DNA from: Candidatus Omnitrophota bacterium
Lineage (GTDB): Bacteria; Omnitrophota; Omnitrophia; Omnitrophales; Aquincolibacteriaceae
Assembly (NCBI GenBank): GCA_043718225.1
Contig: JAYSWD010000001.1
Location: 49,092 to 113,091 of the forward strand
Direction of reading: 5' to 3'
DNA: 64,000 nt
Made by a program: the position numbers and the translations under genes. Positions 4,145-64,000 of the stretch are shown piece after piece; within the stretch, counting starts at the first letter, position 1, and every line of letters begins with the position of its first letter. The notes under the pieces were generated by a model. The model saw only the letters and a list, made by a program, of their open reading frames with translations. It was not told the origin of the DNA and searched no databases.

Positions 4145-4168
4145 GCTCTGCGCCTTTGGCGCAACCGC
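4145..4168 (+). repeat. Family A short hairpin repeat (CTCTG-RGC-loop-GCY-CAACCGC)
   Basis: gctctgcgcctttggcgcaaccgc. Confidence 0.8.
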
Positions 4169-4245
4169 CGAAAGCAAAAAAGATTTTTTTGAAAACCGCA
4201 TGTTGAGTTTATCGAGACATGCAAAATGTGAACGAGGAAAAGAAA

Positions 4246-4614
4246 ATGAAAAAAGAAATTCACCCCGAATACCGCAAGGTCGTCTTTCGTGACGCCTCAA
4301 GCGATTTTATTCTGTTAACAAGCTCGACGGTTAAAACCACCGAAACGCATGTTTTGGACGGCGTCACTTATCCGTCATATTTGGTCGACATCACAAGCGC
4401 GTCGCACCCGTTTTTCACGGGCAAGCAGCGTATTATGGATACGGCCGGACGCATTGACCGCTTCAAGAAGAAGTTTCAGGACAAGGTCACCGTTGGCGCG
4501 AAAAGCTCTGTGGATGTGAAGGCCCAGAATGCCGCGAAGAAATCCAGCGTCGGATCGACGATCAGCGAAAAACTGAAGGCGCTTAAAGAAAAAGCCGCTG
4601 CTCAGAATTCTTAG
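4246..4614 (+). CDS. rpmE: 50S ribosomal protein L31, type B (no Cys zinc ribbon), with a Lys/Ala-rich C-terminal extension
   Basis: MKKEIHPEY...HPFFTGKQR signature with no CxxC pairs. GAGGAAAAG lies upstream of the ATG at 4246; the start could be 4219. Confidence 0.8.
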
Positions 4615-4623
4615 ACTGTTTCC

Positions 4624-4661
4624 AAAAAATCCCCGTTACTTTCGAGTAGCGGGGATTTTTC
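4624..4661 (+). terminator. Rho-independent terminator after rpmE
   Basis: aaaaaatccccgttactttcgagtagcggggattttt. Confidence 0.6.
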
Positions 4662-4668
4662 TATTTAG

Positions 4669-4692
4669 GCTCTGGGCGCTTCGCCCAACTGC
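4669..4692 (+). repeat. Family A repeat
   Basis: gctctgggcgcttcgcccaactgc. Confidence 0.8.
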
Positions 4693-4725
4693 TAACAATA
4701 ATTACATGCCGAGCTTTATCGAGGC

Positions 4726-6731: not shown

Positions 6732-6777
6732 AATGCATCGCCGGTCGGGCGTAAGCCCGGAGGCTTAAAAGATACCG

Positions 6778-8043
6778 ATGGACAAAATAATTGTAAAAGG
6801 CGGAGCCAAGTTAAAAGGCGAAGTCGAAATTTCAGGAGCAAAAAACTCCGCGCTGCCCTTGATGGCGGCGGCACTGCTTTCGCCGGATGAATCGATTTTT
6901 GAAAATGTGCCGAATCTGAGCGACATCATGACGATGTGCAAACTTTTGCGTTCGCTCGGCGCGCGTGTTACGTACGAAGACGGAACGCTTGCGATTAAGC
7001 CTGGCAAAAATTTAAAAGCATTCGCGCCTTATAAGTTAGTCAGCACGATGCGTGCTTCTGTTTGTGTTATGGGGCCATTGCTTGCACGGCTGGGTGAAAC
7101 AGAAGTTTCTTTGCCGGGCGGCTGTGTTATCGGGCCGCGTCCGATCGATTTACATTTAAAGGGCTTGGAAGCATTGGGCGCGAAGATTGAAATTCGCCAC
7201 GGTTATGTGCGTGCGAAAGCGGGACCGAAAATGCGCGGCGCGGAAATTTATCTCGGCGGGTCTTACGGCTCGTCTGTTTTGGCGACAGGCAATGTCATGA
7301 TGGCGGCGACATTGACGCCCGGTAAAACGATTATCGAAAGCGCCGCCTGCGAGCCTGAAGTTGTGGATCTCGCGAATTTTTTGAAAGCGATGGGCGCTAA
7401 AATTTCAGGTGAAGGTTCGCCGCGCATTGAAATCGAAGGCGTCAAAAAGTTGCACGGAGCCAATTATCGCGTCATACCGGATCGCATCGAAGCCGGAACT
7501 TTTATGTTTGCAGCGGCGATTACGGGCGGCGATTTGATGATTAAAAAAATGGAGCCGAGCCATCAGAACGCGGTGATTGATAAATTGCTGCAAACCGGTG
7601 TTAAAGTTGTGAAGTATAAAAACGCCGTGCGTGTTTCGCGCCGCGGAAAACTGAAAGCCGTCGATATGACGACATTGCCGTATCCGGCGTTTCCGACGGA
7701 TTTGCAGGCGCAAATGATGGCCTTGATGACAATTGCGCCGGGCATCAGCGTGATTACGGAAAAAATTTATCCGGATCGTTTCATGCATGTCAGCGAGCTC
7801 GGACGTATGGGCGCGAAGATCATTATGGAAGGCTCGACATCAGTTATTCATGGTGTAAAGAAATTGAGCGGCGCGCCGGTGATGGCATCTGATTTGCGCG
7901 CGAGCGCGGCGCTGGTTTTGGCGGGTTTGGTCGCGGACGGTGAAACGGAAATAAGCCGTGTTTATCATTTGGATCGCGGATATGACCGGTTGGAGCAGAA
8001 GCTTTTAAAAGTCGGCGCGTCTATAAGAAGAGTAAAAGAGTAA
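6778..8043 (+). CDS. murA: UDP-N-acetylglucosamine 1-carboxyvinyltransferase
   Basis: N-terminus MDKIIVKGGAKLKGEVEISGAKNSALP, EPSP-synthase-like fold, 421 aa. Confidence 0.9.
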   Translation: MDKIIVKGGAKLKGEVEISGAKNSALPLMAAALLSPDESIFENVPNLSDIMTMCKLLRSLGARVTYEDGTLAIKPGKNLKAFAPYKLVSTMRASVCVMGPLLARLGETEVSLPGGCVIGPRPIDLHLKGLEALGAKIEIRHGYVRAKAGPKMRGAEIYLGGSYGSSVLATGNVMMAATLTPGKTIIESAACEPEVVDLANFLKAMGAKISGEGSPRIEIEGVKKLHGANYRVIPDRIEAGTFMFAAAITGGDLMIKKMEPSHQNAVIDKLLQTGVKVVKYKNAVRVSRRGKLKAVDMTTLPYPAFPTDLQAQMMALMTIAPGISVITEKIYPDRFMHVSELGRMGAKIIMEGSTSVIHGVKKLSGAPVMASDLRASAALVLAGLVADGETEISRVYHLDRGYDRLEQKLLKVGASIRRVKE

Positions 8044-8067
8044 ACGCGAAGCGTTTTCTTTTACTCG

Positions 8068-8091
8068 GCTCTGCGCTTTTGGCGTAACCGC
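8068..8091 (+). repeat. Family A repeat
   Basis: gctctgcgcttttggcgtaaccgc. Confidence 0.75.
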
Positions 8092-8150
8092 GCAAAACTA
8101 GCAAATTGTAGATTAGTAGTTAGTAAGTAGTAATAAAGGGAGAAAAGAAA

Positions 8151-8408
8151 ATGGCAGTAAGAATTCGTATGAAGCGTTTTGGCGCGAAGAACCGTCCGCA
8201 ATGGCGCATTGTTGTCGCGGACGCAAAGTCACCGCGTGACGGCCGTTTCATCGAGGAAATCGGTTTTTATGACGCTCTTCCGAAAGAGGAAAAGTTTGTC
8301 TTGAAACAGGATCGTCTCGATCATTGGACCAAGGCCGGTGCTCAAGTTAGCATTTCGGTGAAAAGTCTGATTAAGAAGCAGCAGCGCAAGACCAAAGCGA
8401 AGGCGTAA
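8151..8408 (+). CDS. rpsP: 30S ribosomal protein S16
   Basis: MAVRIRMKRFGAKNRPQWRIVVAD signature. An RBS GGGAG lies upstream. Confidence 0.9.
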   Translation: MAVRIRMKRFGAKNRPQWRIVVADAKSPRDGRFIEEIGFYDALPKEEKFVLKQDRLDHWTKAGAQVSISVKSLIKKQQRKTKAKA

Positions 8409-8420
8409 CAGTTTTCTTTC

Positions 8421-8442
8421 GCTCTGGGCTTTGCCCAACCGC
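8421..8442 (+). repeat. Family A repeat
   Basis: gctctgggctttgcccaaccgc. Confidence 0.8.
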
Positions 8443-8475
8443 GACGCGGTTGTGGTGTATCCGCAGAGCAGCAAT

Positions 8476-9237
8476 ATGTTAGAAATTGATATCGTCACGT
8501 TGTTTCCGGATTTTTTCGAATCTCCGTTGAAACAGTCGCTTTTGAAGCGCGCGCAGGCCGACGGATTGATTAAAATCCGCGTGCATAATCTGCGCGATTG
8601 GGCGCGCGATAAGCATCACAAAACGGATGATTCGCCTTTTGGCGGCGGCCCCGGAATGGTGTTTAAGATCGAGCCAATGCATGAGTGCTTGAAAGAAATC
8701 GGTGCGGGAGCATGGAAAATTTTGCTCGATGCGCATGGCGAATTGCTGAAGCCAAAGTTGGCTGAAAGCCTCGCGCAGAAAAAGAAAATTGTTTTGATCG
8801 CGGGCCATTACGAAGGTATGGACTACCGCATTAAAGAACACCTGGTCGACCAAATGGTTTCGGTCGGTGACTTTATTACGATGGGCGGCGAAGCCCCGGC
8901 CTTGTGTTTGATTGAAGCGCTGACAAGGTTTGTTCCGGACGTGCTCGGAAACGAAGAATCGACGGCAGAAGAGAGTTTTAGCGGCGGGATGCTTGAATAT
9001 CCGCAGTATACGCGGCCGCGCGAATATAACGGTTGGGAAGTTCCCGAAGTTTTGTTTTCGGGAAATCATGCGAAGATAAAAAAGTGGCGTAATGAGACGG
9101 CGGAGAAATTGACGCGGAAGCACAGACCAGACTTACTACATTCTGCTTCTGCGCTGCCGGCGCAACCAGCGGATGAAGAGGGCAACAAAACCGTGAAGGT
9201 TAAGCTGAAAAGAGAAAGAGCTTCGAAAAAGAAATAA
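8476..9237 (+). CDS. trmD: tRNA (guanine37-N1)-methyltransferase
   Basis: SPOUT TrmD motifs (IVTLFPDFF, SPFGGGPGMV, LIAGHYEGMDYR). I chose the ATG at 8476 (MLEIDIV); the upstream in-frame stretch is Family A repeat sequence. The C-terminal tail contains a Family A copy in-frame. Confidence 0.85.
   Translation: MLEIDIVTLFPDFFESPLKQSLLKRAQADGLIKIRVHNLRDWARDKHHKTDDSPFGGGPGMVFKIEPMHECLKEIGAGAWKILLDAHGELLKPKLAESLAQKKKIVLIAGHYEGMDYRIKEHLVDQMVSVGDFITMGGEAPALCLIEALTRFVPDVLGNEESTAEESFSGGMLEYPQYTRPREYNGWEVPEVLFSGNHAKIKKWRNETAEKLTRKHRPDLLHSASALPAQPADEEGNKTVKVKLKRERASKKK
9147..9170 (+). repeat. Family A variant, in-frame in the trmD 3' end
   Basis: cttctgcgctgccggcgcaaccagc. Confidence 0.6.
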
Positions 9238-9250
9238 TAGTATTGTTTGG

Positions 9251-9275
9251 CCTTTGAGACGCTGTCTCAACCGGC
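9251..9275 (+). repeat. Family A-like variant
   Basis: ctttgagacgctgtctcaaccggca. Confidence 0.45.
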
Positions 9276-9313
9276 ATGCAGAGCAAAAATTTAAAGAAAT
9301 AATAATAGGAAAA

Positions 9314-9336
9314 TGCGGTTGGGCGAAAGCCCAGAG
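9314..9336 (-). repeat. Family A repeat, reverse orientation
   Basis: gcggttgggcgaaagcccagagc. Confidence 0.8.
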
Positions 9337-9354
9337 CAAAAAGGAGACAGGAAA

Positions 9355-9669
9355 ATGAATGTAATTCAAAAAATCGACGCAAAAACAAAAGCAAGCCGTC
9401 AAATCCCCGAGTTTCGCGTGGGCGACACTTTAAAAGTTCACTTGAAAGTGAAAGAGGGCAGCAAGACTCGCACGCAGATTTTCGAAGGCGTTTGTCTTCG
9501 CCGCCGCGGATCCGGTGCCGGAGCCAGCTTCGGTGTCATCAAGGATTCCCACGGCGACAAAGTGGAAAAGACTTTCCCGCTTTATACGCCCTCGATTGAA
9601 AAAATCGAAGTGACACGCACGGGTTCAGCCCGCCGCGCCAAGCTTTATTATTTGCGCGACCTGAAATAA
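9355..9669 (+). CDS. rplS: 50S ribosomal protein L19
   Basis: MNVIQKID...RVGDTLKVH signature with an RBS AAGGAGA upstream. The longer ORF start at 9313 would read through a reverse-oriented Family A repeat. Confidence 0.9.
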
Positions 9670-9690
9670 GAGCCAAGAGACTTCCTTTTT

Positions 9691-9713
9691 GCTCTGGGCT
9701 TTTGCCCAACCGC
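9691..9713 (+). repeat. Family A repeat
   Basis: gctctgggcttttgcccaaccgc. Confidence 0.8.
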
Positions 9714-9764
9714 ATGAGCTGAGCATGAGCAACTGCGGATCATTGGAAATGCTCGGATTAAGTT

Positions 9765-10508
9765 ATGGCCACAGTAGGGTCTTCCGAAACTCAAATTGAG
9801 TTATTTGATTTTGACAGGAAGGCCATTCTTTCCGGTGGTCAGGCCGAAGGCGATACTGTCGGTCGCTGGGCCGGAGTCGATGAGGCCGGCCGAGGACCGC
9901 TCGCGGGTCCTGTGGTTGCCGCCGCGGTCATTCTGATCTTTCCCGAAGGCCTTGAAGGCTTAAATGACTCCAAGAAGCTCACCGCTAAAAAACGAAAAAT
10001 GCTTTACAGCGAAATTATTTCGCGCCAGTTGGTGGGAATCGGCTTCGCCGACGAAAAAGAAATCGACACGATTAATATTCTGCGAGCGTCATTACTTGCC
10101 ATGAAGCGCGCCGTGCTTGATCTTTGCATTTCTCCGACCGGCCTTTTAATTGACGGAACTTATTCCACGGATTTACCTCTTCCGCAAAAAACAGTGATCG
10201 AAGGCGACGCCAAATCCGCGAGTATCGCCGCCGCCTCGGTCGTTGCGAAAGTCGTGCGGGACGCGTGGATGGAAAAATGTGATATCGAATATCCGCTTTA
10301 TGGTTTCGGGAAACACAAGGGCTATGGAACTAAGATTCATATGGATGCGCTAACGGAACATGGGCCATGCGCGATTCACCGCCGTAGCTTTGAGCCGGTG
10401 CGACGGCTACATTTAAGCTCTGAGCCAAGGCTCAACCGCACGGAAAATCCCAGCTCTGGAATTTTGCCCCTGTCTGCCGGCAGGCAGGCAACCACGCACA
10501 TGCCATGA
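9765..10508 (+). CDS. rnhB: ribonuclease HII with a ~35 aa C-terminal tail encoded by repeat elements
   Basis: AGVDEAGRGPLAGPVV and HRRSFEPV motifs. The tail after ..PVRRLHL is encoded by Family A copies plus a CTGCCGGCAGG palindrome. The start is uncertain, since an internal Met is possible. Confidence 0.8.
   Translation: MATVGSSETQIELFDFDRKAILSGGQAEGDTVGRWAGVDEAGRGPLAGPVVAAAVILIFPEGLEGLNDSKKLTAKKRKMLYSEIISRQLVGIGFADEKEIDTINILRASLLAMKRAVLDLCISPTGLLIDGTYSTDLPLPQKTVIEGDAKSASIAAASVVAKVVRDAWMEKCDIEYPLYGFGKHKGYGTKIHMDALTEHGPCAIHRRSFEPVRRLHLSSEPRLNRTENPSSGILPLSAGRQATTHMP
10417..10439 (+). repeat. Family A repeat, in the rnhB C-terminal tail
   Basis: gctctgagccaaggctcaaccgc. Confidence 0.8.
10469..10488. 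repeat. Family E GC palindrome (CTGYCYGCCGGCRGGCAGG)
   Basis: cctgtctgccggcaggcagg, in the rnhB tail, where it encodes ..AGRQA.. Confidence 0.55.
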
Positions 10509-30062: not shown

Positions 30063-30140
30063 GTCTGATGCATTTTCGAATCTATAAGACTTTCTTTTTA
30101 TTCAGAAATTAATTTGGTCTTCAAAAAACTTGATTTGAGT

Positions 30141-30178
30141 TTGCTCGGACAGTCCTCGCTTCGCTGCGGAACTCGCAA
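30141..30178 (+). repeat. Family D 35 nt motif (GCTCRRACAGTCCTCG.CTTCGC.TGCGGAACTCGC), left end of a ~410 bp element
   Basis: ttgctcggacagtcctcgcttcgctgcggaactcgcaa, enclosed by the ACTTGATT / AATCAAGT stem. Confidence 0.6.
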
Positions 30179-30513
30179 CTCCCAATCAAGTTTTCTGAAA
30201 ATATCCTCGCAAGTGGGGGTGTAGGCTGTAAGCAGAGAAAAAAGGCTGAGCCACGCTCTTCGTCAAAATGCGATAGAGTTAAATAAAAACGATATCCCTC
30301 GAACTTCAAAGAATTTTCCCATGATCTTTTTTCATGGCGCTGCTGAGCCGCGCCATGAAAAAGTATTATTGGAAACTTCACCAGCTGGTTCGAGGTATTT
30401 AATTAGCAAAAGAACGCGGAGCTTTCGAGTAAGTTGATATGCGCAACTTGTTTCTCCTTTCATAGCCCACATCCCCATCTTTGTTGCTATGTCGTCAGGG
30501 CAGAGGCTTAGCA

Positions 30514-30551
30514 TGCGAGTTCCGCAGGCCAAAGGCCGAGGACTGTTTGAG
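30514..30551 (-). repeat. Family D motif, inverted copy at the right end of the element
   Basis: The reverse complement reads gctcaaacagtcctcggcctttggcctgcggaactcgc. Confidence 0.6.
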
Positions 30552-30651
30552 CAGGCGAAGCTTCTGCTCGGGCGACCAAGCTATTTTATAAAAGAGATTA
30601 TTTTTTGAATACAAGAGCTAGTTACCATTCACTATCCACGAGTCACAATTC

Positions 30652-46056: not shown

Positions 46057-48450
46057 ATGCGAAAAGAACGAATCAATGAAATCTGGGGCGTGTTTTTTTT
46101 GCTGTTGGGCCTTTTTGCTCTTTGCAGTCTGATCGGTTTCAACCGGCTTGATATTCCTTTTTATACCTCGCATCCGAATAATCCCGTCAAAAATTACACG
46201 GGCATTATCGGAGCCTACACTTCGTTCGGACTTTATCTCAGTTTTGGCTGGAGCGCATTTGTTGTTCCTATTCTTTTTTTAATTTGGGCTTGGAGTTTTC
46301 TTAAGCAGCGTGTTCCGGATAAACGTTTTTTAAAATTTCTCGGCCTTTTCGCGGCGATAGCGGCGAGCGCCACTCTTTTTTCGGTTTTAGCTTCCGACGA
46401 AAATCGTATTACCGCGGGCGGCTGCCTCGGGCATGTGACGGCAACTTATCTGCTGAAATATTTCGGATTTGCGGGAAGTCTGATCGTTTCTTTTTGCACA
46501 TTGATGCTCGCGCTTATTTTAGCGACGGACTATCTGCTTTTCCCGCTTATTGAAGCGGTGGCACAGCTTGCCGCTCATGCGCTTATGGGTGTGTGGCCTT
46601 ATTTTTCGCGCGCCGGCGAAGCTTTTGCGGGCATTTTTTCTTTTTTGAGTAAAACCGATGAACGCCCGAAGAAAAGCCGCGAGCCGCATGTCAAAGCTGA
46701 AAAAGAAAAGCCCCTGCCCGGCCGGCAGGCAGGCAAGAAAGAAACGGAAGTACCAAGGCCCGCTTTGGACGCAAAAATTCTCAACCAGCCGATTAAAGTA
46801 AAAGCTTACCGTCCGGAAGCCGGTGCCGAAGAATTAAAACAGAAAGAAATGTTAGCTGCCGCGGAAACAGCGAGATCCGCGAGTAAGCCCGCCATTCTCA
46901 AAGCAAAATTAGACCAGCCTAAAGCCGAGGCTCCTGTGTCCGAAGATTCTTTTAAAGGCGTGATCGGATCCGCGGCAAAGAAAAAATATGTTCTGCCGCC
47001 GCCGAGCCTTTTAACACGCCCGCCCGCGGCGAAAGCTTCGAATGATAATCTCGAAGCGAATTCAAAAATTATTGAGCAAACCTTGTCTGAGTTCGGCATC
47101 GAGGTGAAGGTCACCGAAGTTGAGCAGGGCCCCGTCATCACCCGTTATGAACTCTTGCCCGCGCCCGGTGTGAAGCTGAATTCAATTTCCAATCTCGCGG
47201 ACAACCTGGCTTTGGCGCTAAAAGCGTCGAGCGTGCGCATGATTATTCCGATTCCGGGTAAATCGGCGGTGGGGATTGAAATTCCGAACTCCGTAACCAA
47301 CATGGTTTATTTGCGCGAGCTTGTGGAAACGCCCGAATTTAATGCCGGCAAGCATCCGCTGCCGCTTATCTTAGGCAAAGACACAAGCGGACGGCCTTTG
47401 CTATCCGATTTAAGCGGAATGCCGCATATGCTGGTTGCGGGAACCACGGGCAGCGGAAAAACAGTTTGCGTGAACGCGATTATCGGCGGCTTGCTTTTTT
47501 CAAAAACACCCGATGAGCTTAAATTTGTGATGGTTGATCCGAAGATGGTGGAAATGGCGGTTTACAATAAAATTCCGCATATGTTGACGCCGGTTGTGAC
47601 TGATGTCAGAAAAGCCGCGCACGCGATCAATTGGGTGGTGCAAGAAATGGAAAAGAGATACCGGCTTTTATCGACTGTCGGCGTAAGAAACATCAGCGCG
47701 TTCAACGCGCGCGTGATCAGCGAAGAAGATCAGCTGCAGCTTGATATCGCGGACGCGAAGACTTCAGAAAATCTTATTCCGGCAAAGCTGCCTTACATTG
47801 TGGTGATCATCGACGAGCTTGCGGATTTGATGATGACGATGCGTGATAAAGTCGAAGGACCGATTTGCCGCCTGGCGCAGCTTTCGCGTGCGGTCGGGAT
47901 TCATTTGATTCTCGCCACACAGCGCCCGTCGGTGGATGTTATCACGGGTGTAATCAAGGCGAATTTTCCGGCGCGTATTTCATTTAAGGTTTCTTCCAAA
48001 GTGGATTCACGCACGGTTTTGGACGGAAATGGCGCGGATCAACTGCTCGGCAAAGGTGACCTGTTGTTTTTAAAGCCGGGAGAAGCGAAGTTAATTCGCG
48101 GCCAGGCGCCGTTTGTTTCGGATGAAGAAATACGTGACGTTGTCGACTACTGGGCAAAGCAGGGCAATCCGGAATTTCTTCAGGAATTAATCGCGCCGGT
48201 TGAAAAAAAAGCGGGCGAGGGCAGCGGTGAAAAAGATGAGCTTTACGACGAAGCCCTGCGGGTAGTCGTCGAAACGCGAGTTGCTTCCACATCCAATCTG
48301 CAGCGCCGCATGGGGCTTGGCTATACGCGCGCCGCGCGAATTATGGACCAGCTTGAATCTCAGGGCGTAATAGGCCCTTCGCAGGGCGCCAAAGCGCGCG
48401 AAGTCTATATGCCCAATCCCAATGCCGAAACTCCTGCCACCACCGAATAA
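46057..48450 (+). CDS. ftsK: DNA translocase FtsK
   Basis: N-terminal TM segments, a Pro/Ala/Lys-rich linker, a motor domain (GTTGSGKT Walker A) and a gamma winged-helix C-terminus. I chose the start at 46057 (MRKERINEIW). Confidence 0.85.
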   Translation: MRKERINEIWGVFFLLLGLFALCSLIGFNRLDIPFYTSHPNNPVKNYTGIIGAYTSFGLYLSFGWSAFVVPILFLIWAWSFLKQRVPDKRFLKFLGLFAAIAASATLFSVLASDENRITAGGCLGHVTATYLLKYFGFAGSLIVSFCTLMLALILATDYLLFPLIEAVAQLAAHALMGVWPYFSRAGEAFAGIFSFLSKTDERPKKSREPHVKAEKEKPLPGRQAGKKETEVPRPALDAKILNQPIKVKAYRPEAGAEELKQKEMLAAAETARSASKPAILKAKLDQPKAEAPVSEDSFKGVIGSAAKKKYVLPPPSLLTRPPAAKASNDNLEANSKIIEQTLSEFGIEVKVTEVEQGPVITRYELLPAPGVKLNSISNLADNLALALKASSVRMIIPIPGKSAVGIEIPNSVTNMVYLRELVETPEFNAGKHPLPLILGKDTSGRPLLSDLSGMPHMLVAGTTGSGKTVCVNAIIGGLLFSKTPDELKFVMVDPKMVEMAVYNKIPHMLTPVVTDVRKAAHAINWVVQEMEKRYRLLSTVGVRNISAFNARVISEEDQLQLDIADAKTSENLIPAKLPYIVVIIDELADLMMTMRDKVEGPICRLAQLSRAVGIHLILATQRPSVDVITGVIKANFPARISFKVSSKVDSRTVLDGNGADQLLGKGDLLFLKPGEAKLIRGQAPFVSDEEIRDVVDYWAKQGNPEFLQELIAPVEKKAGEGSGEKDELYDEALRVVVETRVASTSNLQRRMGLGYTRAARIMDQLESQGVIGPSQGAKAREVYMPNPNAETPATTE
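46713..46733. repeat. Family E-like GC palindrome inside the ftsK linker
   Basis: cctgcccggccggcaggcagg, encoding LPGRQAGK. Confidence 0.4.
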
Positions 48451-59181: not shown

Positions 59182-60123
59182 TTAAAAGGAACCGGGCCGC
59201 GGGTCATGGGGTTCGCCGGGCTTTTTATGCAATATCGAAACAAGAATTGACACCCCGATCAGCCCCGCCACGACCCCAAGCGAAATGCCGATCGGAATAT
59301 GATAGTAATGCGAAATCAGCATTTTGACGCCGATGAAAGCCAGTACCGCGGAAAGCCCGAATTTTAAATATTCGAACATTTTAATGACGCCTGCCAAAGC
59401 GAAATAAAGCGACCGCAGTCCAAGAATCGCAAAAATATTCGAAGTGTAAACAATAAAAGAATCTTTGCTGATCGCAAGCACCGCCGGAATCGAATCCATG
59501 GCAAAAACAAGATCGGTGAGCTCAACGCAGATCAAAGCGACAAACAGCGGCGTGATGAATGTCTTGCCGTCGATTTTTAGAATAAACCGCCCGTTCTCGG
59601 CGTTAGGCGCGACCGGAAACATTTTCGTGACGAGTTTCAAGACGGGGTTTTTTTCGGGATGCATTTCCTTTTCTTTTTCAAAAGCCATTTTCAGGCCGGT
59701 ATAAAGCAGGAAAGCGCCAAAAATATAAATAATAAAATGGAATTTATTGATGAGAAAAAGGCCGGCTGTAATAAAGAAAGCGCGCATTACTAGCGCGCCG
59801 AGAATGCCCCAGAATAAAATTTTATGCTGATATTGGTCCGGTACGCGGAAATATTGAAAAATGAGAATGAAAACAAAGAGATTGTCTACGGACAAGGATT
59901 CTTCAATCAAGTACGCGGCAAAAAACTCCAAGGCGGATTGCTGGCCTTTAACAAAAAAGACACCGATTCCGAAAAGAACGGCCAGCGAAATCCAAAAGGC
60001 GCTTTGCCATAAAGCCTCTTTAACTTTTATGGCATGCGGCCGCTTATGCATAAGGGTTAGATCCAGCGTCAAAAGTGTAATGACGGCGGCATTAAATAAA
60101 ATCCAAGGCCAAAGGGTATTCAT
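59182..60123 (-). CDS. TerC-family integral membrane protein
   Basis: TerC signature (ESLSVDNLFVF, DLVFAMDSIPAVLAI). Confidence 0.75.
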   Translation of the reverse strand: MNTLWPWILFNAAVITLLTLDLTLMHKRPHAIKVKEALWQSAFWISLAVLFGIGVFFVKGQQSALEFFAAYLIEESLSVDNLFVFILIFQYFRVPDQYQHKILFWGILGALVMRAFFITAGLFLINKFHFIIYIFGAFLLYTGLKMAFEKEKEMHPEKNPVLKLVTKMFPVAPNAENGRFILKIDGKTFITPLFVALICVELTDLVFAMDSIPAVLAISKDSFIVYTSNIFAILGLRSLYFALAGVIKMFEYLKFGLSAVLAFIGVKMLISHYYHIPIGISLGVVAGLIGVSILVSILHKKPGEPHDPRPGSF

Positions 60124-60207
60124 GGGGAGAGATCATAACTGCCGTTTGACTTCCAATCAAGTGAGAATAGAATAAGCCCTGTTATAAACAAGTTTTTGGG
60201 AGGAATT

Positions 60208-60675
60208 ATGAAGATTGATATCGGAATTGAAAAAAAGGACCGCAAAGAAATCGCCGACGGGCTTTCGAAGCTGCTGGCAGACACTTACACGCTTTATCTT
60301 AAAACGCATAATTTTCATTGGAATGTAACGGGGCCGATGTTCCAAACATTACATCTTATGTTTGAAACGCAATACAACGAACTTGCGCTTGCGGTTGATT
60401 TAATCGCGGAACGAATCCGTGCTTTGGGTTTTCCCGCGCCGGGAAGCTATAAAGAGTTTTCCAAGCTGGCCTCGATTAAAGAAGCGAGCGGTGTTCCCAA
60501 AGCCACCGATATGATCCGTCAGCTGGTTGACGGGCAGGAAGCGGTTGTTCGAACCGCGCGCGCGGTATTTCCCGCGGTGGAACGGGTGAGCGATGAACCG
60601 ACGGCGGATCTTTTAACGCAGCGCATGCAGATACACGAAAAAACGGCTTGGATGCTGAGAAGTTTAATAAGCTGA
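60208..60675 (+). CDS. dps: Dps (DNA protection during starvation) ferritin-like protein
   Basis: [23 protein letters not shown] ferroxidase-centre motifs. Confidence 0.85.
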
Positions 60676-60736
60676 TTTTTTCCTGTCATTTCCAGCTTAG
60701 TCGAGAGTCTATAAGGCTCAAAAAAATTCTATCGCT

Positions 60737-60772
60737 GGCTCAAACAGTCCTCGGCTTCGCCTGCGGAACTCG
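60737..60772 (+). repeat. Family D motif, third copy between dps and the R-M island
   Basis: gctcaaacagtcctcggcttcgcctgcggaactcgc, enclosed by the ctcaaaaaaattctatc / gataggatttttttgag stem. Confidence 0.6.
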
Positions 60773-61068
60773 CCATTGATAGGATTTTTTTGAGTTCATC
60801 GCTCAAGGGGTGGAGGCTTAAAAAGGAGAAACAAGGCGAAGAATGCCGAGTTGCTCGAAGGCGCTTTTATTTTATCTGCGGATACCTGCCTCGAATCTTT
60901 GAATAGTTTCCCATCATACGGTCTTTCCTCGATTCCACGCGAATCGCGGAAAGACGGACGTATCTCCGTCCTTTGGCGGAGGCGCTAAAGGAGGCGGGGA
61001 TTGACTCACATGCTGCGCAGTGGTATCAAAATAGTAGTTAGTATTTTTTATTTAAGCCGATAACTCTT

Positions 61069-61680
61069 TTGATGAAAATCATAAAAATAACCACGCTTAT
61101 TGAATCTGGGCCTTTTTCCAAATCAGATATCTTGGAAAAAATTCTTAAAGAAATTTATTCCTCCATCGAGAAAATTGAACACCCAAAAGGATCTGGTAAA
61201 TTTATTTTACATGACCAATGCGGAAAGAAGCGGGGCGAAGGTAATGGCGTTAAACCCATTAAGCTATTGTGCATGAAATTTTTAAAGCAGGCGGGATGGG
61301 AGTTGGAAACCAGAGAGCCGGTATCCTCTGAAAAGCACCCTGGCCCTATCGATGCCGCACTGAAAGTGGCGGGAAGATTATTTTGTTTTGAATGGGAAAC
61401 TGGAAATATTTCGTCTAGCCATAGAGCCTTAAATAAAATGGCAATAGGCATTTTGAAAGGGCGACTTATAGGTGGAGTATTAGTTTTGCCATCAAGGGCA
61501 ATGTATCATTACCTTACCGATCGAGTTGGAAATTTTCAAGAAATAGAGCCTTACTTTCTTTTGTGGAAATCGTTATCTGTTAAAGAGGGTTATCTCGCGG
61601 TAATTGAAATTGAACATGACGGAGTGAGTAAAAAAGTAAAACGAATACCCAAAGGGACAGATGGGCGAGCGTTAAATTAA
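61069..61680 (+). CDS. Type II restriction endonuclease, BamHI-like
   Basis: Collinear similarity to R.BamHI as I remember it, including PID...FEWETGNISSSHRALNKM (the D/E.E catalytic triad), YLTDRVGNFQEIEPYF and IPKGTDG. GC is about 35% against roughly 50% for the window. Confidence 0.7.
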   Translation: MMKIIKITTLIESGPFSKSDILEKILKEIYSSIEKIEHPKGSGKFILHDQCGKKRGEGNGVKPIKLLCMKFLKQAGWELETREPVSSEKHPGPIDAALKVAGRLFCFEWETGNISSSHRALNKMAIGILKGRLIGGVLVLPSRAMYHYLTDRVGNFQEIEPYFLLWKSLSVKEGYLAVIEIEHDGVSKKVKRIPKGTDGRALN

Positions 61681-62829
61681 AAGCAAATTTTCTTTTTTGT
61701 TTTGTTCTATTCGTCTAATGATGGGGAAGCAGTCTTCGATTTCGCACCCAATCCACCGACGCTTTAGTCTTTCTGCTGCATAGTAAGTGGTCCCACCGCC
61801 ACCAAATGGATCAAAAACCAAATCATTTTCCTGAGTCGCAATTTTTAAGACGCGCTCAAGCAATTTGACAGATAATTCATTTGCTGGACGAGCTTTGTTT
61901 TTTTTGTGACGCACAGGAGGAATATCATCCCACACATCTGTAAGATTTAATCCCAACGGATTTAAAAATTTTCTATGCCCGCCATAATCTTTTATATCGC
62001 CACCGCAATGTCTGCATTTTGGAATGGGGACGCGCAGATGATTAAAAGTTTGAGGCTTGCCCTTGGTGAAATAGAGCAAACTGTAGTGCGAGGGGTACAA
62101 ACGGCCCGGAATGGGAAGGGAAAGCTTGATGTTGACGGCGATCCAGTGGCGAAATGTTAATTGTTTAATGAGAAACGAAGAGTAGTAAACATTCCATTTT
62201 GGGATGTTGTATACAAAAAGACTTCCTCCTGGCTTTAATATGCGAACGCATTCTTCCAGCCACTGATATGACCACTGTAAATATTTTTCTTCCGCTAGAT
62301 TGTCGTTAACTTTCGCACCATAGTTTTTATTTAAATTAAATGGCGGGTCAGCAAAAATGCAGTCGATGGATTCAGTGTCAATTTTAGGGAGCAGGTCTAA
62401 ACAGTCGGCTTTATACAATTTTCCCAAAGAGCTTTCATAGATAGGTTGCAATGACTTCTCTTCTTGGATTTCTCTTTCATAGTTATAGACAGAGAAACTT
62501 TCCCGCAAAACAGAGGCAGCTTCTGATGGGTGCTCGTGAAAAATTTTGTAAATATCTTTTGGTAATTTTCCAGTAGCCAGGCGCAGACGATCGATGTCTT
62601 GTTTGAAGTATTTAGATACTTTTTTAAGAAGTTTGTCTGAAGGCGGAACAGAGCCCTTTTCAACTCGGCTTAGATAAGCGTGGTCGACTTGAATTTTTTC
62701 TGAAAACTTTCGAATGCTGAGCTTTTGATTCAATCTAATTTTTTTGATTACATTTTGAGGAGCCAAGATTTCTCCAGGTGTTGACTTGATTTGTCCACAC
62801 ATTGTTGCATTTTTAAGACGACCTTGCAA
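61672..62829 (-). CDS. DNA methyltransferase (beta-class amino-MTase, N4-cytosine or N6-adenine) with an N-terminal XRE-type HTH
   Basis: Motif IV DPPF (IFADPPFNLN) precedes motif I FDPFGGGGTT, which marks the beta class. The N-terminal IKKIRLNQKLSIRKFSEKIQVDHAYLSRVEKG is an HTH. The gene is convergent with the R gene and overlaps it. Confidence 0.75.
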   Translation of the reverse strand: MQGRLKNATMCGQIKSTPGEILAPQNVIKKIRLNQKLSIRKFSEKIQVDHAYLSRVEKGSVPPSDKLLKKVSKYFKQDIDRLRLATGKLPKDIYKIFHEHPSEAASVLRESFSVYNYEREIQEEKSLQPIYESSLGKLYKADCLDLLPKIDTESIDCIFADPPFNLNKNYGAKVNDNLAEEKYLQWSYQWLEECVRILKPGGSLFVYNIPKWNVYYSSFLIKQLTFRHWIAVNIKLSLPIPGRLYPSHYSLLYFTKGKPQTFNHLRVPIPKCRHCGGDIKDYGGHRKFLNPLGLNLTDVWDDIPPVRHKKNKARPANELSVKLLERVLKIATQENDLVFDPFGGGGTTYYAAERLKRRWIGCEIEDCFPIIRRIEQNKKENLLLI

Positions 62830-62870
62830 ATACTTTTCTTAAGAGATCGGCAAAATTTGGAGTATTTTCC

Positions 62871-62946
62871 TGACTGCCGGTCGGCAGACAAAAGTATTTC
62901 GAATTAGTCTTTGGTCGTTGGTCCCTTCCCTGCCGGCAGGCAAGGG
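62871..62946. repeat. Two Family E GC palindromes at the right border of the R-M island
   Basis: tgactgccggtcggcagaca and cccttccctgccggcaggcaaggg. Confidence 0.5.
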
Positions 62947-62958
62947 ATAATCGTGAGT

Positions 62959-64000
62959 CTAGCTGACTTGCAGCAGCAGGCCTTTGAGGTATTCGCCTTC
63001 GGGGTGATAAATCGAAACTGGATGGTCGAGAGCATGGCCGGTTTTGGTGAGGATTTTCACCGCGCGCTTCGCGTCTTTTGCGGCACCGAAGATAATCTTT
63101 TGAAATAAATCCGGGCTAATAAATGAAGAGCAAGATGCCGTATAAAGAAAACCACCAGACGCAATCTTCTTCATAGCTTCCAAATTAATATCTTTGTAGC
63201 CGCGCGCGGCCTGTTGAATTTGGTTTTTGTTTTTACAGAAAGCCGGAGGATCCAAAATAATCAGGTCGGGTTCAAAAACATTTTCCCTTAAAAACTCAAA
63301 GACGTCTCTTTTTTCAATAAAGTGCGGAATCTTTGGAAAGTTAAGGCGCATATTCTCTTCGGCGGCTTCTGTGGCGAATTCAGAAATATCGACGGACATA
63401 ATTTCTTTGGCATGGCCGGCGGCCGCGGCGACCGAGAACCCGCCGCTATAACAAAAACAATCGAGAACTTTTCTGTCTTTCGCGATGCCGCGGATCAAAT
63501 TTCTGTTTTCGCGTTGATCTAAAAAGAAGCCCGTTTTCTGAGTCGTTTTCCAGTCAATCAAAAAATGCAGCGCATTTTCTGAAATTTCTGTTTGATCGGG
63601 AAGCGTTCCCGCCAAAATAGTATTTTCATTTTTTAAGCCTTCCAATTCACGTTCTTTCATGCCTTTTTCAAAAACGGCGCGGAGCGGAAAAAGATTTTTA
63701 AAAACTGAGAGAATTTCCTTTTTGTATTTATCTATGCCCGCGGTTGAAAATTGCAATACAAGAACATCGCAATAAAGGTCGGCGGTTAACCCGGGCAATC
63801 CGTCGCCCTCGGAATTAATTAACCGGCAGGCGTTTGTTTGATTATTTAAAATTTGGATTTTGCGCAGCGAAACCGCGGACTCAATTTTATTTTTTAAAAA
63901 ATCCGTGTTAATTTCGGTTTTTTCGAATGCCAGCATGCGGACCGTGATTTGAGATTTGGGATTAAAGTAGCCGATTCCTAAAAAGTCGCCCGAAGCCGAT
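62959..64000 (-). CDS. rlmI: 23S rRNA m5C methyltransferase RlmI-like (PUA plus SAM-MTase); the 5' end continues beyond the window
   Basis: LDCFCYSGGFSVAAA, DLIILDPPAFCK, a PUA-like N-terminal region. The reading frame stays open past 64000 and aligns with E. coli RlmI. Confidence 0.75.
   Translation of the reverse strand, partial: SASGDFLGIGYFNPKSQITVRMLAFEKTEINTDFLKNKIESAVSLRKIQILNNQTNACRLINSEGDGLPGLTADLYCDVLVLQFSTAGIDKYKKEILSVFKNLFPLRAVFEKGMKERELEGLKNENTILAGTLPDQTEISENALHFLIDWKTTQKTGFFLDQRENRNLIRGIAKDRKVLDCFCYSGGFSVAAAAGHAKEIMSVDISEFATEAAEENMRLNFPKIPHFIEKRDVFEFLRENVFEPDLIILDPPAFCKNKNQIQQAARGYKDINLEAMKKIASGGFLYTASCSSFISPDLFQKIIFGAAKDAKRAVKILTKTGHALDHPVSIYHPEGEYLKGLLLQVS

What the first reader, a model, noticed from the sequence alone, without database searches (positions are those of the whole stretch)
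60676..62958. Low-GC BamHI-like restriction-modification island with an HTH fused to the methyltransferase, bordered by repeat elements
The 203 aa protein is collinear with R.BamHI and keeps its catalytic and DNA-contact residues (PID, FEWETGN, GNISSSHR.LNK, YLTDRVGNF, IPKGTDG). The convergent partner is a beta-class amino-MTase (DPPF before FxGxG) with an XRE-type HTH at its N-terminus and no separate C protein. In BamHI the controller is a separate gene, so this would be a different regulatory architecture. The two genes run about 35% GC against roughly 50% for the neighbourhood. They sit between dps and rlmI. A Family D motif lies on the left flank, and two CTGCCGGCAG-type palindromes lie on the right.
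Basis: partly seen in the sequence, partly recalled or inferred. Interest (0 to 1): 0.7.

Follow-up and report, generated by a model that had tools for sequence, protein, structure and literature searches.

The report
Inserted BamHI/OkrAI-type restriction-modification gene pair
A two-gene "cut foreign DNA / mark own DNA" defence cassette of the well-known BamHI/OkrAI type has been inserted between two housekeeping genes of an Omnitrophota-like bacterium. Its methylase carries a built-in DNA-binding switch that most likely shuts off its own gene, which is a known design and common in this enzyme family, so the finding is real but fairly ordinary.

Summary
R (61072-61680, +, 202 aa) is a full-length BamHI-family endonuclease. 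It is closest to OkrAI (E=1.3e-63) and keeps all 11 OkrAI catalytic and GGATCC-contact residues. M (61672-62766, -, 364 aa, TTG start) is an XRE-type HTH joined to a beta-class amino-methyltransferase. The genes converge and overlap by 9 bp, and there is no C gene.

A related Omnitrophota MAG has the same MFS-terC-dps-rlmI synteny but no R-M genes, so about 2.0 kb (~60956-62958) is an insertion. GC is 39.5% against 47.4% for the window, not 35 against 50. The left "Family D" motif is native DNA. The right palindrome belongs to a small repeat family in the window.

A 19-bp palindrome, GTTGAC-N7-GTCAAC, lies just upstream of M in 14 of 14 HTH-M cassettes. It is the only such site in the 64-kb window (62780-62798). 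It is absent from R promoters and from MTase-only relatives. The best reading is that M represses its own gene.

The architecture is not rare: 69 of the top 120 M homologues carry the long N-terminal extension. Even classical BamHI-type MTases with a separate C gene keep a degenerate copy. HTH-fused regulatory MTases are textbook (SsoII, EcoRII). The island is a new member of a known kind, of modest interest.

The parts
60956..62958 (.). Inserted segment of about 2.0 kb that carries the R-M cassette. The edges are approximate: left about 60954-60990, right about 62870-62958.
   Evidence: blastn against the empty-site relative L025: homology runs to window 60953 and resumes at 62968. In L025 only about 29 bp separate the conserved hairpin from the rlmI stop codon. 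No target-site duplication or terminal inverted repeats were found.
61072..61680 (+). Restriction endonuclease gene, 202 aa, BamHI/OkrAI family. Predicted to cut GGATCC.
   Evidence: Pfam PF02923 at E=1.7e-58. PDB OkrAI 3odh at 1.3e-63 and BamHI 1bam at 1.8e-21. PADLOC REase_II at 1.6e-65. All 11 OkrAI catalytic and recognition residues are conserved: E79 D94 E107 E109 N112 R118 D150 R151 D197 G198 R199 (residue list from PMC3025578). More than 100 homologues are also 202 aa long.
61672..62766 (-). Methyltransferase gene, 364 aa, TTG start. Its stop codon overlaps the end of R by 9 bp.
   Evidence: An exact 364-aa NCBI copy exists (P0001). Close homologues are 364 aa with the same SD-TTG geometry. 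PADLOC MTase_II at 2.1e-118. It is 47-50% identical to the MTases partnered with BamHI/OkrAI-like endonucleases.
62575..62766 (-). N-terminal XRE-type helix-turn-helix domain of M (aa 1-64). The recognition region reads VDHAYLSRVEKG.
   Evidence: Pfam HTH_3 at E=9e-11. AlphaFold model: five helices with pLDDT 86-96. The reading head is conserved in 14 fused homologues. The nearest solved HTH is 9sf2 at 7e-8, and R-M controller proteins are only weak hits.
62437..62574 (-). Conserved helical extension and flexible linker (aa 65-110), motif ...AGKLPKDIxxIFxEHPxEAA...
   Evidence: Helices at residues 70-78 and 80-94, followed by a low-pLDDT linker. The segment is conserved in fused homologues and is recognisable in classical long MTases.
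61675..62436 (-). Beta-class amino-methyltransferase domain (aa 111-364). Motif IV DPPF is at 62338-62349 and motif I FGGGG is at 61792-61806.
   Evidence: Pfam PF01555 at E=1.8e-42. Foldseek best hits are M.BceJIV, M.MboIIA, rotifer N4CMT, M.RsrI and M.PvuII.
62780..62798 (-). Putative operator for the M HTH. It is a 19-bp palindrome, GTGGAC-AAATCAA-GTCAAC, one mismatch from GTTGAC-N7-GTCAAC. It lies 14 nt upstream of the TTG start.
   Evidence: It is the only site with 2 or fewer mismatches in the 64-kb window. There is exactly one such site per fused locus, always just upstream of M (window plus 13 relatives). MTase-only loci show only background 2-mismatch sites (12 in 293 kb). The chance of a site with 1 or fewer mismatches in a given 100 nt is about 2e-4.
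62772..62775 (-). Shine-Dalgarno GGAG for M, 5 nt before TTG 62766.
   Evidence: Read directly from the sequence. The same GGAG/GGAGG plus TTG arrangement is found in L089, L090, L169 and L171.
62801..62829 (-). Hand-called M promoter: -35 TTGCAA (62824-62829), 17-nt spacer, -10 AACAAT (62801-62806). The -10 abuts the operator.
   Evidence: Positional analogy with relatives, where CATAAT, CATTAT or CATGAT directly precedes the operator. In subgroup B the operator's left arm is itself a TTGACA -35. The consensus scan tool did NOT call this site, so it remains an inference.
61059..61064 (+). A -10-like hexamer, GATAAC, exactly 7 nt before the R ATG. This suggests a possibly leaderless R mRNA. 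An alternative hand-called promoter is TTGACT 61001-61006, 17-nt spacer, TATCAA 61024-61029.
   Evidence: A conserved block, TAGTTAT.TTTT...CGATAA, lies upstream of R in L169, L170 and L171. L170 has the same 7-nt spacing. There is no SD before the R start. The scan tool did not call either site, so this is an inference.
60921..60955 (.). Native hairpin, GTCTTTCCTCGATTC/GAATCGCGGAAAGAC. It marks the left edge of the insertion.
   Evidence: Inverted repeat I9. It is conserved in the empty-site relative L025.
60715..60796 (+). It is not part of the island.
   Evidence: Copies lie at about 30120-30200 and 30495-30575. An orthologous copy is present in L025. RNA folding z-score is -5.8.
62922..62947 (.). 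Palindrome TCCCTTCCCTGCCGGCAGGCAAGGGA, just 3' of the rlmI stop codon. It belongs to a repeat family in the window. A second, imperfect one (CTGCCGGTCGGCAG) lies at 62875-62888.
   Evidence: Related copies lie near 10474 and 46712.
60196..60675 (+). dps (ferritin-like), the left native neighbour.
   Evidence: Pfam PF00210 at 7.4e-26. It is syntenic in L025.
62959..64000 (-). RlmI-like SAM methyltransferase gene, the right native neighbour. It runs off the end of the window.
   Evidence: Pfam PF10672. The reading frame is open to the window end. It is a 395-aa gene on contig L001 and is 78% identical to the L025 orthologue.

Best explanation
This is an intact, horizontally acquired Type IIP restriction-modification cassette of the BamHI/OkrAI family. 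It sits in the chromosome of an Omnitrophota-like bacterium.

What each part most likely does:
- R most likely cuts GGATCC.
- M most likely protects the host by methylating GGATCC, by homology at N4 of the inner cytosine.
- M is bifunctional. Its N-terminal XRE-type HTH binds, probably as a dimer, to a 19-bp palindrome that lies between the -10 region and the ribosome-binding site of its own gene. This represses M transcription once enough M has accumulated. The logic is the same as in the SsoII, Ecl18kI, EcoRII and MspI regulatory methyltransferases, and it replaces the separate C protein of classical BamHI-type systems.
- R is not under direct HTH control. It appears to be held low by weak expression signals: no SD, a possibly leaderless mRNA, and perhaps head-on transcription from the M promoter.

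Shown:
- gene identities and conserved catalytic and recognition residues
- the insertion, relative to an empty site in a related genome
- the HTH fold
- a conserved, position-specific palindrome upstream of M

Inferred:
- GGATCC and m4C specificity
- binding of the HTH to the palindrome, and autorepression
- promoter positions
- how R expression is delayed
For: R identity:
- PF02923 at 1.7e-58 and OkrAI at 1.3e-63.
- 11 of 11 OkrAI catalytic and base-contact residues are conserved (PMC3025578).

M identity:
- HTH_3 plus N6_N4_Mtase, with DPPF before FGGGG.
- 47-50% identity over nearly its full length to the MTases paired with OkrAI-like and BamHI-like endonucleases. The Geobacillus R is 70% identical to the BamHI sequence as recalled from memory, of which residues 16-198 agree with the PDB alignment.
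- M.BamHI makes 4mC in GGATCC (PMC9150344).

Island:
- L025 has the same MFS-terC-dps-rlmI order without R-M genes.
- R+M GC is 39.5% against 47.4% for the window, in the lowest 0.16% of same-size windows.
- The closest cassette (R 79% identical) lies next to integrase and resolvase genes in another Omnitrophota MAG.

Regulation:
- The HTH is modelled with high confidence, and its reading head is conserved.
- A GTTGAC-N7-GTCAAC/GTCACC palindrome lies directly upstream of M in 14 of 14 fused cassettes. It is unique in the 64-kb window. It is absent from R upstream regions and from 293 kb of MTase-only loci beyond background.
- No other HTH ORF exists in the island.
- Autorepression by HTH-bearing MTases is established for other families (PMC3874152, PMC12707154, PMC2760811).
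Against: - There are no experimental data for this family.
- The window's operator has one arm mismatch and a less symmetric spacer than those of its relatives.
- The consensus promoter scan found no sigma-70-like site upstream of either gene, so overlap of the operator with a promoter rests on hand calls and on analogy.
- GGATCC is not depleted in the window: 13 sites against 11.4 expected. There is therefore no genomic footprint of restriction pressure.
- N4-cytosine and N6-adenine chemistry cannot be told apart by sequence or fold.
- Most convergent relatives do without any HTH, so the HTH is not essential to the chassis.
Confidence: 0.72

Rival explanations
1. The fused HTH acts like a classical C protein. 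It activates or represses the R promoter, so R depends directly on M-HTH binding.
For: The fused-domain profile matches the C proteins of classical BamHI/OkrAI-type systems at E=3e-13 to 6e-9. Operator half-sites (GAC/GTC, and GACT...AGTC in relatives) recall C-boxes.
Against: No copy of the palindrome (2 or fewer mismatches) lies upstream of R in the window or in any fused locus. R and M promoters sit at opposite ends of the cassette, about 1.8 kb apart. C-box spacing differs: GAC-N4-GTC tandem boxes against GAC-N7-GTC.
Confidence: 0.08
2. The N-terminal domain is not a transcriptional regulator. It is either an accessory DNA-binding or dimerisation module that helps the methyltransferase on its substrate, or a vestige.
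For: A homologous but degenerate N-terminal domain persists in classical long MTases that have their own C protein. This suggests a role other than regulation in those proteins.
Against: In the window lineage the domain scores as a bona fide HTH with a conserved reading head. It co-occurs 14 of 14 times with a palindrome at its own gene that is unrelated to GGATCC. MTase-only relatives at 60-70% identity lack both the domain and the palindrome.
Confidence: 0.1
3. The pair is functional but has a different specificity or chemistry. Either the site is not GGATCC, or protection is by N6-adenine methylation.
For: R is only 53% identical to OkrAI and 34% to BamHI. Motif IV is DPPF, a form common in N6-adenine enzymes. 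NCBIfam's best sub-threshold names are adenine-specific, and JGI labels homologues as adenine-specific.
Against: All base-contacting residues of OkrAI and BamHI are conserved. OkrAI and BamHI share the same specificity at only about 36% identity. All MTases partnered with BamHI/OkrAI-type endonucleases also have DPPF. The automatic 'adenine-specific' labels are generic.
Confidence: 0.12
4. The cassette is a decaying or silent remnant: either R is inactive or M is effectively an orphan.
For: The operator is slightly degenerate. R lacks a recognisable SD and promoter. GGATCC is not avoided.
Against: Both ORFs are full length with every catalytic motif intact. The lengths match those of many homologues. 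An identical copy was assembled independently from another read set.
Confidence: 0.05

Closest known systems
OkrAI restriction endonuclease (Oceanobacter kriegii; PDB 3ODH), a BamHI isoschizomer
   Same: It is the best solved relative of R (E=1.3e-63, about 53% identity). Both are compact enzymes of about 200 aa. The catalytic residues E-D-E-E and the recognition residues N, R, D, R and D-G-R are identical (PMC3025578).
   Different: OkrAI's nearest genomic relatives (Hahella, Thalassocella) have M divergent from a C-R operon, with canonical C-boxes. The window has convergent R and HTH-M genes with no C gene. The gene context of OkrAI itself could not be retrieved.
BamHI R-M system with C.BamHI (Bacillus). 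Proxy used here: Geobacillus plasmid pGeo12b.
   Same: Same endonuclease family (PF02923) and a homologous MTase: 48% identity over 357 aa, DPPF at the same position, and an N-terminal extension of the same length.
   Different: R is only 34% identical. BamHI-type systems use a separate C gene upstream of R, divergent from M. The N-terminal domain of their MTases no longer scores as an HTH.
Regulatory (dual-function) methyltransferases: M.SsoII, M.Ecl18kI, M.EcoRII, M.MspI, M.ScrFIA
   Same: An N-terminal HTH joined by a flexible linker to the catalytic domain. The operator lies at the MTase's own promoter and gives autorepression (PMC3874152, PMC12707154, PMC3978073, PMC2760811). The window shows the same anatomy: HTH, linker, and a palindrome at its own 5' region.
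   Different: Those are C5-cytosine MTases, mostly with divergent R and M genes that share one regulatory region, so that M binding also boosts R. Here the MTase is a beta-class amino-MTase, the genes converge and overlap at their 3' ends, and no operator lies near R. There is no sequence homology between the catalytic domains.
C-protein-controlled R-M systems (PvuII, Esp1396I, AhdI, Kpn2I) and C-REase fusions (NsoJS138I)
   Same: An XRE-family HTH recognises GAC/GTC-type dyads. Fusion of the regulator to an R-M enzyme has precedent (PMC3850674).
   Different: There is no separate C gene and there are no tandem C-boxes. The regulator is fused to M, not R. The predicted effect is repression of M only.

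Membership tests
BamHI/OkrAI restriction endonuclease family (Pfam PF02923) | Full-length match to the family profile | tested here: met
   197 bits against a cut-off of 22.8, covering residues 3-163 of 203 and profile positions 1-156 of 157. PADLOC REase_II covers 1-199 of 200.
BamHI/OkrAI restriction endonuclease family (Pfam PF02923) | Catalytic E...D...E-x-E, with a glutamate in place of the usual lysine | tested here: met
   E79, D94, E107 and E109 align with OkrAI E71, D86, E99 and E101 (PMC3025578).
BamHI/OkrAI restriction endonuclease family (Pfam PF02923) | GGATCC-contacting residues: N104, R110, D142, R143 and the C-terminal arm D-G-R (OkrAI numbering) | tested here: met
   N112, R118, D150, R151, D197, G198 and R199 are conserved.
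BamHI/OkrAI restriction endonuclease family (Pfam PF02923) | Cleavage of G^GATCC | not testable with these tools
   Needs enzyme assays.
Beta-class DNA amino-methyltransferase (PF01555), M.BamHI-like | Profile match, with motif IV (DPPx) N-terminal to motif I (FxGxG) | tested here: met
   PF01555 at 146 bits. DPPF is at residue 140 and FGGGG at 321-325. The fold matches beta-class MTases.
Beta-class DNA amino-methyltransferase (PF01555), M.BamHI-like | Orthology with MTases partnered to BamHI/OkrAI-type endonucleases | tested here: met
   47-50% identity over 318-357 aa to the Geobacillus, Hahella, Thalassocella, Salmonella and Desulfocapsa partner MTases.
Beta-class DNA amino-methyltransferase (PF01555), M.BamHI-like | Produces N4-methylcytosine in GGATCC | not testable with these tools
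   Inferred only from homology and from M.BamHI chemistry (PMC9150344). Sequence and fold do not separate N4-C from N6-A.
Regulatory (dual-function) methyltransferases with an N-terminal HTH | HTH domain N-terminal to the catalytic domain, joined by a linker | tested here: met
   HTH_3 at 9e-11. The model shows a five-helix bundle with pLDDT 86-96 followed by a low-confidence linker.
Regulatory (dual-function) methyltransferases with an N-terminal HTH | Specific operator at the MTase's own promoter or 5' region | tested here: met
   The palindrome at 62780-62798 is unique in the window and is conserved in position in 14 of 14 fused cassettes.
Regulatory (dual-function) methyltransferases with an N-terminal HTH | Operator overlaps the promoter | tested here: inconclusive
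   In subgroup B the left arm is a TTGACA -35 with a TAnAAT hexamer 16-17 nt downstream. In the window's subgroup a -10-like hexamer abuts the operator. However, the scan tool calls no promoter there.
Regulatory (dual-function) methyltransferases with an N-terminal HTH | Demonstrated binding and autorepression | not testable with these tools
   Needs EMSA or footprinting and reporter assays.
C-protein-controlled R-M system | Separate small HTH gene upstream of, and co-oriented with, R | tested here: not met
   No HTH ORF other than the M N-terminus lies in 60150-63100. Classical relatives do have such a gene.
C-protein-controlled R-M system | Tandem C-boxes upstream of C/R | tested here: not met
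   No palindrome lies upstream of R. Canonical boxes are seen only in classical loci.
Horizontally acquired genomic islet | Absent from the syntenic site of a related genome | tested here: met
   In L025, dps and rlmI are separated by 302 bp with no R-M genes.
Horizontally acquired genomic islet | Atypical composition | tested here: met
   39.5% against 47.4% GC, in the lowest 0.16% of same-size windows. GC3 is 0.35-0.38 against 0.47-0.57.
Horizontally acquired genomic islet | Mobility signatures: integrase or transposase genes, target-site duplication, terminal repeats | tested here: not met
   None in the window. The one 14-nt direct repeat (60698/62948) falls inside DNA shared with the empty site, so it is chance. 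Integrase and resolvase genes flank the cassette only in another MAG.

The most novel reading that the evidence does not exclude
The convergent HTH-M/R cassette may be a C-protein-independent timing switch.

Proposed mechanism:
- On entry into a naive cell, the unrepressed M promoter fires head-on through the overlapping R gene, which has no terminator and may be leaderless. This holds R down.
- Once M accumulates, its HTH shuts the M promoter at a +1 operator. That relieves the interference and lets R rise.

Proposed evolution:
- The N-terminal domain of all BamHI-type methyltransferases, including those that now rely on a separate C protein, may be a relic of this same HTH.
- If so, 'fused HTH', 'separate C' and 'no regulator' are interconvertible states of one evolving R-M chassis.
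Probability: 0.2. Interest if true: 0.5.

Novelty: new member of a known kind. Interest (0 to 1): 0.28.

Why it matters
The value is modest.
- **Enzyme source.** It adds a probable GGATCC isoschizomer pair from the little-studied Omnitrophota.
- **Regulation.** In the papers searched here, every characterised self-repressing methyltransferase is a C5 enzyme (EcoRII, MspI, SsoII, Ecl18kI, ScrFIA). This finding suggests the same logic also operates in a beta-class amino-methyltransferase family. It comes with a clear, testable operator.
- **Natural experiment.** The comparison across loci shows the same endonuclease/methyltransferase chassis with three regulatory states: a fused HTH, a separate C protein, or no regulator. 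R/M reassortment also occurs. That could be used to study how R-M systems rewire the timing of toxin and antitoxin expression.

None of this changes current understanding of R-M systems.

Tried and rejected
1. **Alternative M starts** (TTG 62829, 385 aa; ATG 62802, 376 aa). Rejected. The stretch between them and TTG 62766 contains the conserved operator and SD. Close homologues and the NCBI copy are 364 aa.
2. **Target-site duplication or terminal inverted repeats.** None found. The 14-nt direct repeat at 60698/62948 lies in DNA shared with the empty site.
3. **'Family D' and the CTGCCGGCAG palindromes as island borders.** Rejected. The left element is native and conserved in L025. The right palindrome has relatives elsewhere in the window.
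4. **A second operator at the R promoter.** None in any locus.
5. **Sigma-70 promoter and terminator scan.** No call upstream of either gene and no terminator between them. Counts were at or below shuffle expectation.
6. **Rfam on 60100-63100.** No hits.
7. **Gene context of OkrAI itself.** The protein is on record without a contig, so near relatives were used instead.
8. **The exact M protein** could not be traced to its NCBI contig. Taxonomy was inferred from RlmI identity and synteny.
9. **Phage and plasmid collections.** No close relative in phages. Only four plasmids carry the R family, and the two examined (Desulfocapsa and Geobacillus pGeo12b) have the classical C-R layout.
10. **N4-C versus N6-A chemistry from PDB sequence or fold hits.** Not discriminating.
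11. **The Bujnicki & Radlinska paper on m4C MTase motifs** is not held in the library. One literature query failed on term length.
12. **GGATCC avoidance.** None: 13 sites against 11.4 expected.


Full report
**What is there**

The interval 60676-62958 is the complete gap between a ferritin-like dps gene (60196-60675, +) and an RlmI-like rRNA methyltransferase gene (62959 to beyond the window end, -). It holds two convergent ORFs.
- **R** (ATG 61072 to 61680, 202 aa) matches Pfam BamHI PF02923 at E=1.7e-58.
- **M** carries HTH_3 (E=9e-11) followed by N6_N4_Mtase (E=1.8e-42).

Their 3' ends overlap by 9 bp (61672-61680). A six-frame scan of 60150-63100, using a profile that does detect the C proteins of classical systems, finds no HTH other than the N-terminus of M. 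There is therefore no separate controller gene.

**The endonuclease**

Among solved structures the best match is OkrAI, the compact BamHI isoschizomer (3odh, E=1.3e-63). BamHI itself is much more distant (1bam, 1.8e-21). The OkrAI paper (PMC3025578) lists these key residues:
- catalytic: E71, D86, E99, E101
- base contacts: N104, R110, D142, R143 and the C-terminal arm D189-G190-R191

All eleven are conserved in the window protein (E79 D94 E107 E109 N112 R118 D150 R151 D197 G198 R199) at 53% overall identity. OkrAI and BamHI share GGATCC specificity at only about 36% identity, so GGATCC is the strong prediction here. PADLOC's REBASE-derived Type II REase model covers the protein end to end (1.6e-65). 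The public protein collection holds thousands of homologues, most of them exactly 202 aa.

**The methyltransferase**

Motif IV (DPPF, residue 140) precedes motif I (FGGGG, 321-325), which is the beta-class order. An AlphaFold model (mean pLDDT 81) shows:
- a confident five-helix XRE bundle (residues 3-64, pLDDT 86-96)
- two further helices (70-94)
- a low-confidence linker
- a methyltransferase fold

The nearest solved relatives of that fold are M.BceJIV, M.MboIIA, the rotifer N4CMT, M.RsrI and M.PvuII. Neither sequence nor fold separates N4-cytosine from N6-adenine enzymes.

The protein is 47-50% identical, over almost its whole length, to the MTases partnered with OkrAI-like and BamHI-like endonucleases in Hahella, Thalassocella, Salmonella, a Desulfocapsa plasmid and Geobacillus pGeo12b. 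The Geobacillus R is 70% identical to the BamHI sequence as I recalled it, of which residues 16-198 agree with the PDB alignment. M.BamHI makes 4mC in GGATCC (PMC9150344). The same product is therefore inferred here, not shown.

**It is an insertion**

The window's own genome is not among the species representatives. The best RlmI match (78% identity) is a Candidatus Omnitrophota MAG (L025). It has the same gene order, MFS transporter, TerC, dps, rlmI, but dps and rlmI are only 302 bp apart and there are no R-M genes.

Nucleotide homology runs from window 59217 to 60953 and resumes at 62968. A hairpin at 60921-60955 is conserved in both genomes. In L025 only about 29 bp separate that hairpin from the rlmI stop codon, against about 2.0 kb in the window. 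The inserted DNA is therefore about 60956-62958.

I found no target-site duplication, no terminal inverted repeats and no mobility genes.

Composition agrees with foreign origin, but less dramatically than stated:
- R+M is 39.5% GC against 47.4% for the window, in the lowest 0.16% of same-size windows.
- GC3 is 0.35-0.38 against 0.47-0.57 in neighbouring genes.

GGATCC is not avoided in the window: 13 sites against 11.4 expected. The closest cassette elsewhere (R 79% identical) lies in another Omnitrophota MAG next to integrase and resolvase genes. An identical copy of the window's cassette was assembled from an independent read set.

**How common is the architecture?**

It is not rare.
- The search with M returned dozens of proteins of 364-443 aa with PF01381+PF01555 at 45-76% identity. 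Named sources include Elusimicrobia, Nitrospiria, Gemmatimonadetes and haloarchaea. The search also returned MTase-only relatives of 270-330 aa.
- Of the top 120 hits, 69 have the long N-terminal extension and all 120 have DPPF.
- In 80 metagenomic loci, 11 have an HTH-M. A convergent BamHI-family R lies directly downstream in the ten whose contig reaches far enough to show it. Most of the rest are MTase-only, and most of those also have a convergent R.
- Overlap of the two stop codons is a family-wide trait, with a median gap of -4 bp in both classes.
- 35 of 38 testable MTase-only cassettes have no HTH gene upstream of R.
- The gamma-proteobacterial relatives nearest to OkrAI, and the two annotated plasmid systems, have the classical layout. 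There M is divergent from a small C gene that overlaps R, with canonical C-boxes between them.

**The N-terminal domain is old in this family**

A profile built from the 69 fused N-termini gave these matches:

| Target | E-value |
|---|---|
| C proteins of classical systems | 3e-13 to 6e-9 |
| N-terminal ~110 residues of classical long MTases: Thalassocella | 5e-10 |
| Geobacillus | 1.5e-8 |
| Desulfocapsa | 2e-8 |
| Hahella | 6e-6 to 1e-4 |
| Salmonella | 1e-5 to 2e-4 |

Those classical MTases have DPPF at the same position (residues 137-144), although Pfam no longer sees an HTH in them, even at E<=10 for the three that were scanned (Hahella, Salmonella, Thalassocella). PADLOC's 428-position MTase model already aligns from residue 25 of the window protein.

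The 'HTH fused to the MTase' is thus not a new fusion in this island. The domain belongs to the whole M.BamHI-like family. What distinguishes the window's lineage is that the domain is still a bona fide HTH and that no C gene exists.

An exhaustive search with the 115-residue module alone found 759 clusters (50% identity) at E<=1e-3. Many of them are stand-alone proteins of about 100-125 aa.

**Mechanism**

Upstream of M, all eleven fused metagenomic loci carry a palindrome, GTTGAC-N7-GTCAAC or GTCACC. L169 and L171, the two closer relatives whose contigs include the region upstream of M, carry it too. The pattern was defined on the relatives and then used to scan other sequence:

| Sequence scanned | Sites with 2 or fewer mismatches |
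|---|---|
| 64-kb window | exactly one, at 62780-62798 (one mismatch), 14 nt upstream of TTG 62766 and followed by a GGAG SD |
| 293 kb of MTase-only loci | 12, all with two mismatches, which is background level |
| R upstream regions | none |

The chance of a site with one or fewer mismatches in a given 100 nt is about 2e-4.

This also fixes the true start of M. The NCBI copy and the closest homologues are 364 aa, all with GGAG plus TTG. In one subgroup the left arm of the palindrome is itself a TTGACA -35, with a TAnAAT hexamer 16-17 nt downstream. In the window's subgroup a -10-like hexamer (CATAAT, CATTAT, or AACAAT in the window) directly abuts the palindrome. The HTH reading head (VDHAYLSRVEKG) is conserved in the window protein.

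The best-supported reading is therefore that M binds this operator and represses its own transcription. This has been demonstrated for the HTH-bearing C5-methyltransferases EcoRII, MspI, SsoII, Ecl18kI and ScrFIA (PMC3874152, PMC12707154, PMC2760811, PMC3978073).

Caveat: the consensus promoter tool calls no sigma-70-like site upstream of either gene and no terminator between them. Promoter positions are hand calls.

**How R is restrained is less clear**

There is no operator near R, there is no SD, and a -10-like GATAAC lies exactly 7 nt before the ATG. The closest relative with the same structure has the same spacing. Other subgroup members show a -10-like hexamer followed by 7 nt and then GTG. 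This suggests a leaderless, weakly translated mRNA.

The genes overlap tail to tail with no terminator. Head-on transcription from an initially unrepressed M promoter could therefore hold R down until M represses itself. This is an attractive but untested timer, and I give it as the 'novel case'.

**Flank elements**

The left motif (60715-60796) is a long hairpin. Its stem sequence differs between its three copies in the window and the orthologous copy in L025, while a loop of about 35 nt is conserved. It has no Rfam match. It is native DNA.

The palindrome at 62922-62947, just 3' of rlmI, belongs to a small family...CTGCCGGCAGGCAGGCAA, with copies near 10474 and 46712. The real right edge of the foreign DNA may therefore lie nearer 62870-62900.

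**Verdict**

The regulatory architecture does differ from that of BamHI. However, it is a widespread, database-visible variant within the family, and it follows a known principle: a methyltransferase with its own HTH repressor domain. I could not find any experimentally characterised amino-methyltransferase of this kind in the searchable literature. A modest novelty therefore remains at the level of the sub-family, not of this locus.

I rate it a new member of a known kind, interest 0.28.

Noticed in passing
window 60715-60796 (+), ~30120-30200 (+), ~30495-30575 (-); L025 8062-8150 (-): A dispersed hairpin element. The long stem differs in sequence between copies but still pairs in each. The apical part of about 35 nt is conserved (GCTCAAACAGTCCTCGGCTTCGCCTGCGGAACTCGC). 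RNA-fold z-scores are -5.8, -3.9, -1.1 and -6.5. There is no Rfam hit in the region searched. The Logan contig L001 breaks inside this element at window 60745. It could be a small structured RNA or a REP/MITE-like element of this Omnitrophota lineage.
   Followed up: partly
window 62922-62947, ~10465-10490, ~46705-46735: A small family of GC-rich palindromes, ...CCCTGnCTGCCGGCAGGCAGGCAA, resembling REP elements or terminators. One copy lies directly 3' of rlmI, inside the segment that is absent from the relative.
   Followed up: partly
L089 (OBEQ011142464.1) versus the window: R/M reassortment. The L089 methyltransferase catalytic domain is 85% identical to the window's, and its operator is of the window's subgroup. 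Its endonuclease is only 43% identical and belongs to another clade (56-62% to L091-L096). The overlapping 3' ends may serve as a recombination joint.
   Followed up: partly
L086/L087 (Salmonella enterica CP011289.1), locus 3049-4597: Two BamHI-family ORFs lie in tandem (296 aa, then 198 aa) downstream of a C gene and divergent from a 418-aa MTase. This may be a duplicated or two-subunit endonuclease arrangement.
   Followed up: no
window 62764-62766, and the M starts of L089, L090, L169 and L171: All five members of the window's subgroup start the methyltransferase gene with TTG after a GGAG/GGAGG SD. A weak start codon that is conserved in this way may be part of the expression balance.
   Followed up: partly
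one search hits (e.g. P0366, P0368, P0370, P0375-P0379): The HTH plus helical-extension module of M (residues ~6-97) also occurs as stand-alone proteins of about 100-125 aa, and fused to unrelated larger proteins (300-770 aa). It appears to be a discrete, mobile regulatory module.
   Followed up: no
window 62959-64000 (-): The RlmI-like gene runs off the end of the window. The 325-aa ORF in the mechanical ORF list is only its internal Met-to-stop part. The full gene is at least 395 aa on contig L001 and includes a PUA domain.
   Followed up: yes
L002-L004 (Omnitrophota MAG, Ga0172380_10000152), locus ~4188-9918: The closest related cassette sits in a cluster that looks like a defence or mobile island. 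The cluster includes a ParB_N-N6_N4 methyltransferase, a separate small HTH gene, a Methyltransf_35 protein, an HATPase_c_3 protein, an integrase and a serine recombinase.
   Followed up: no
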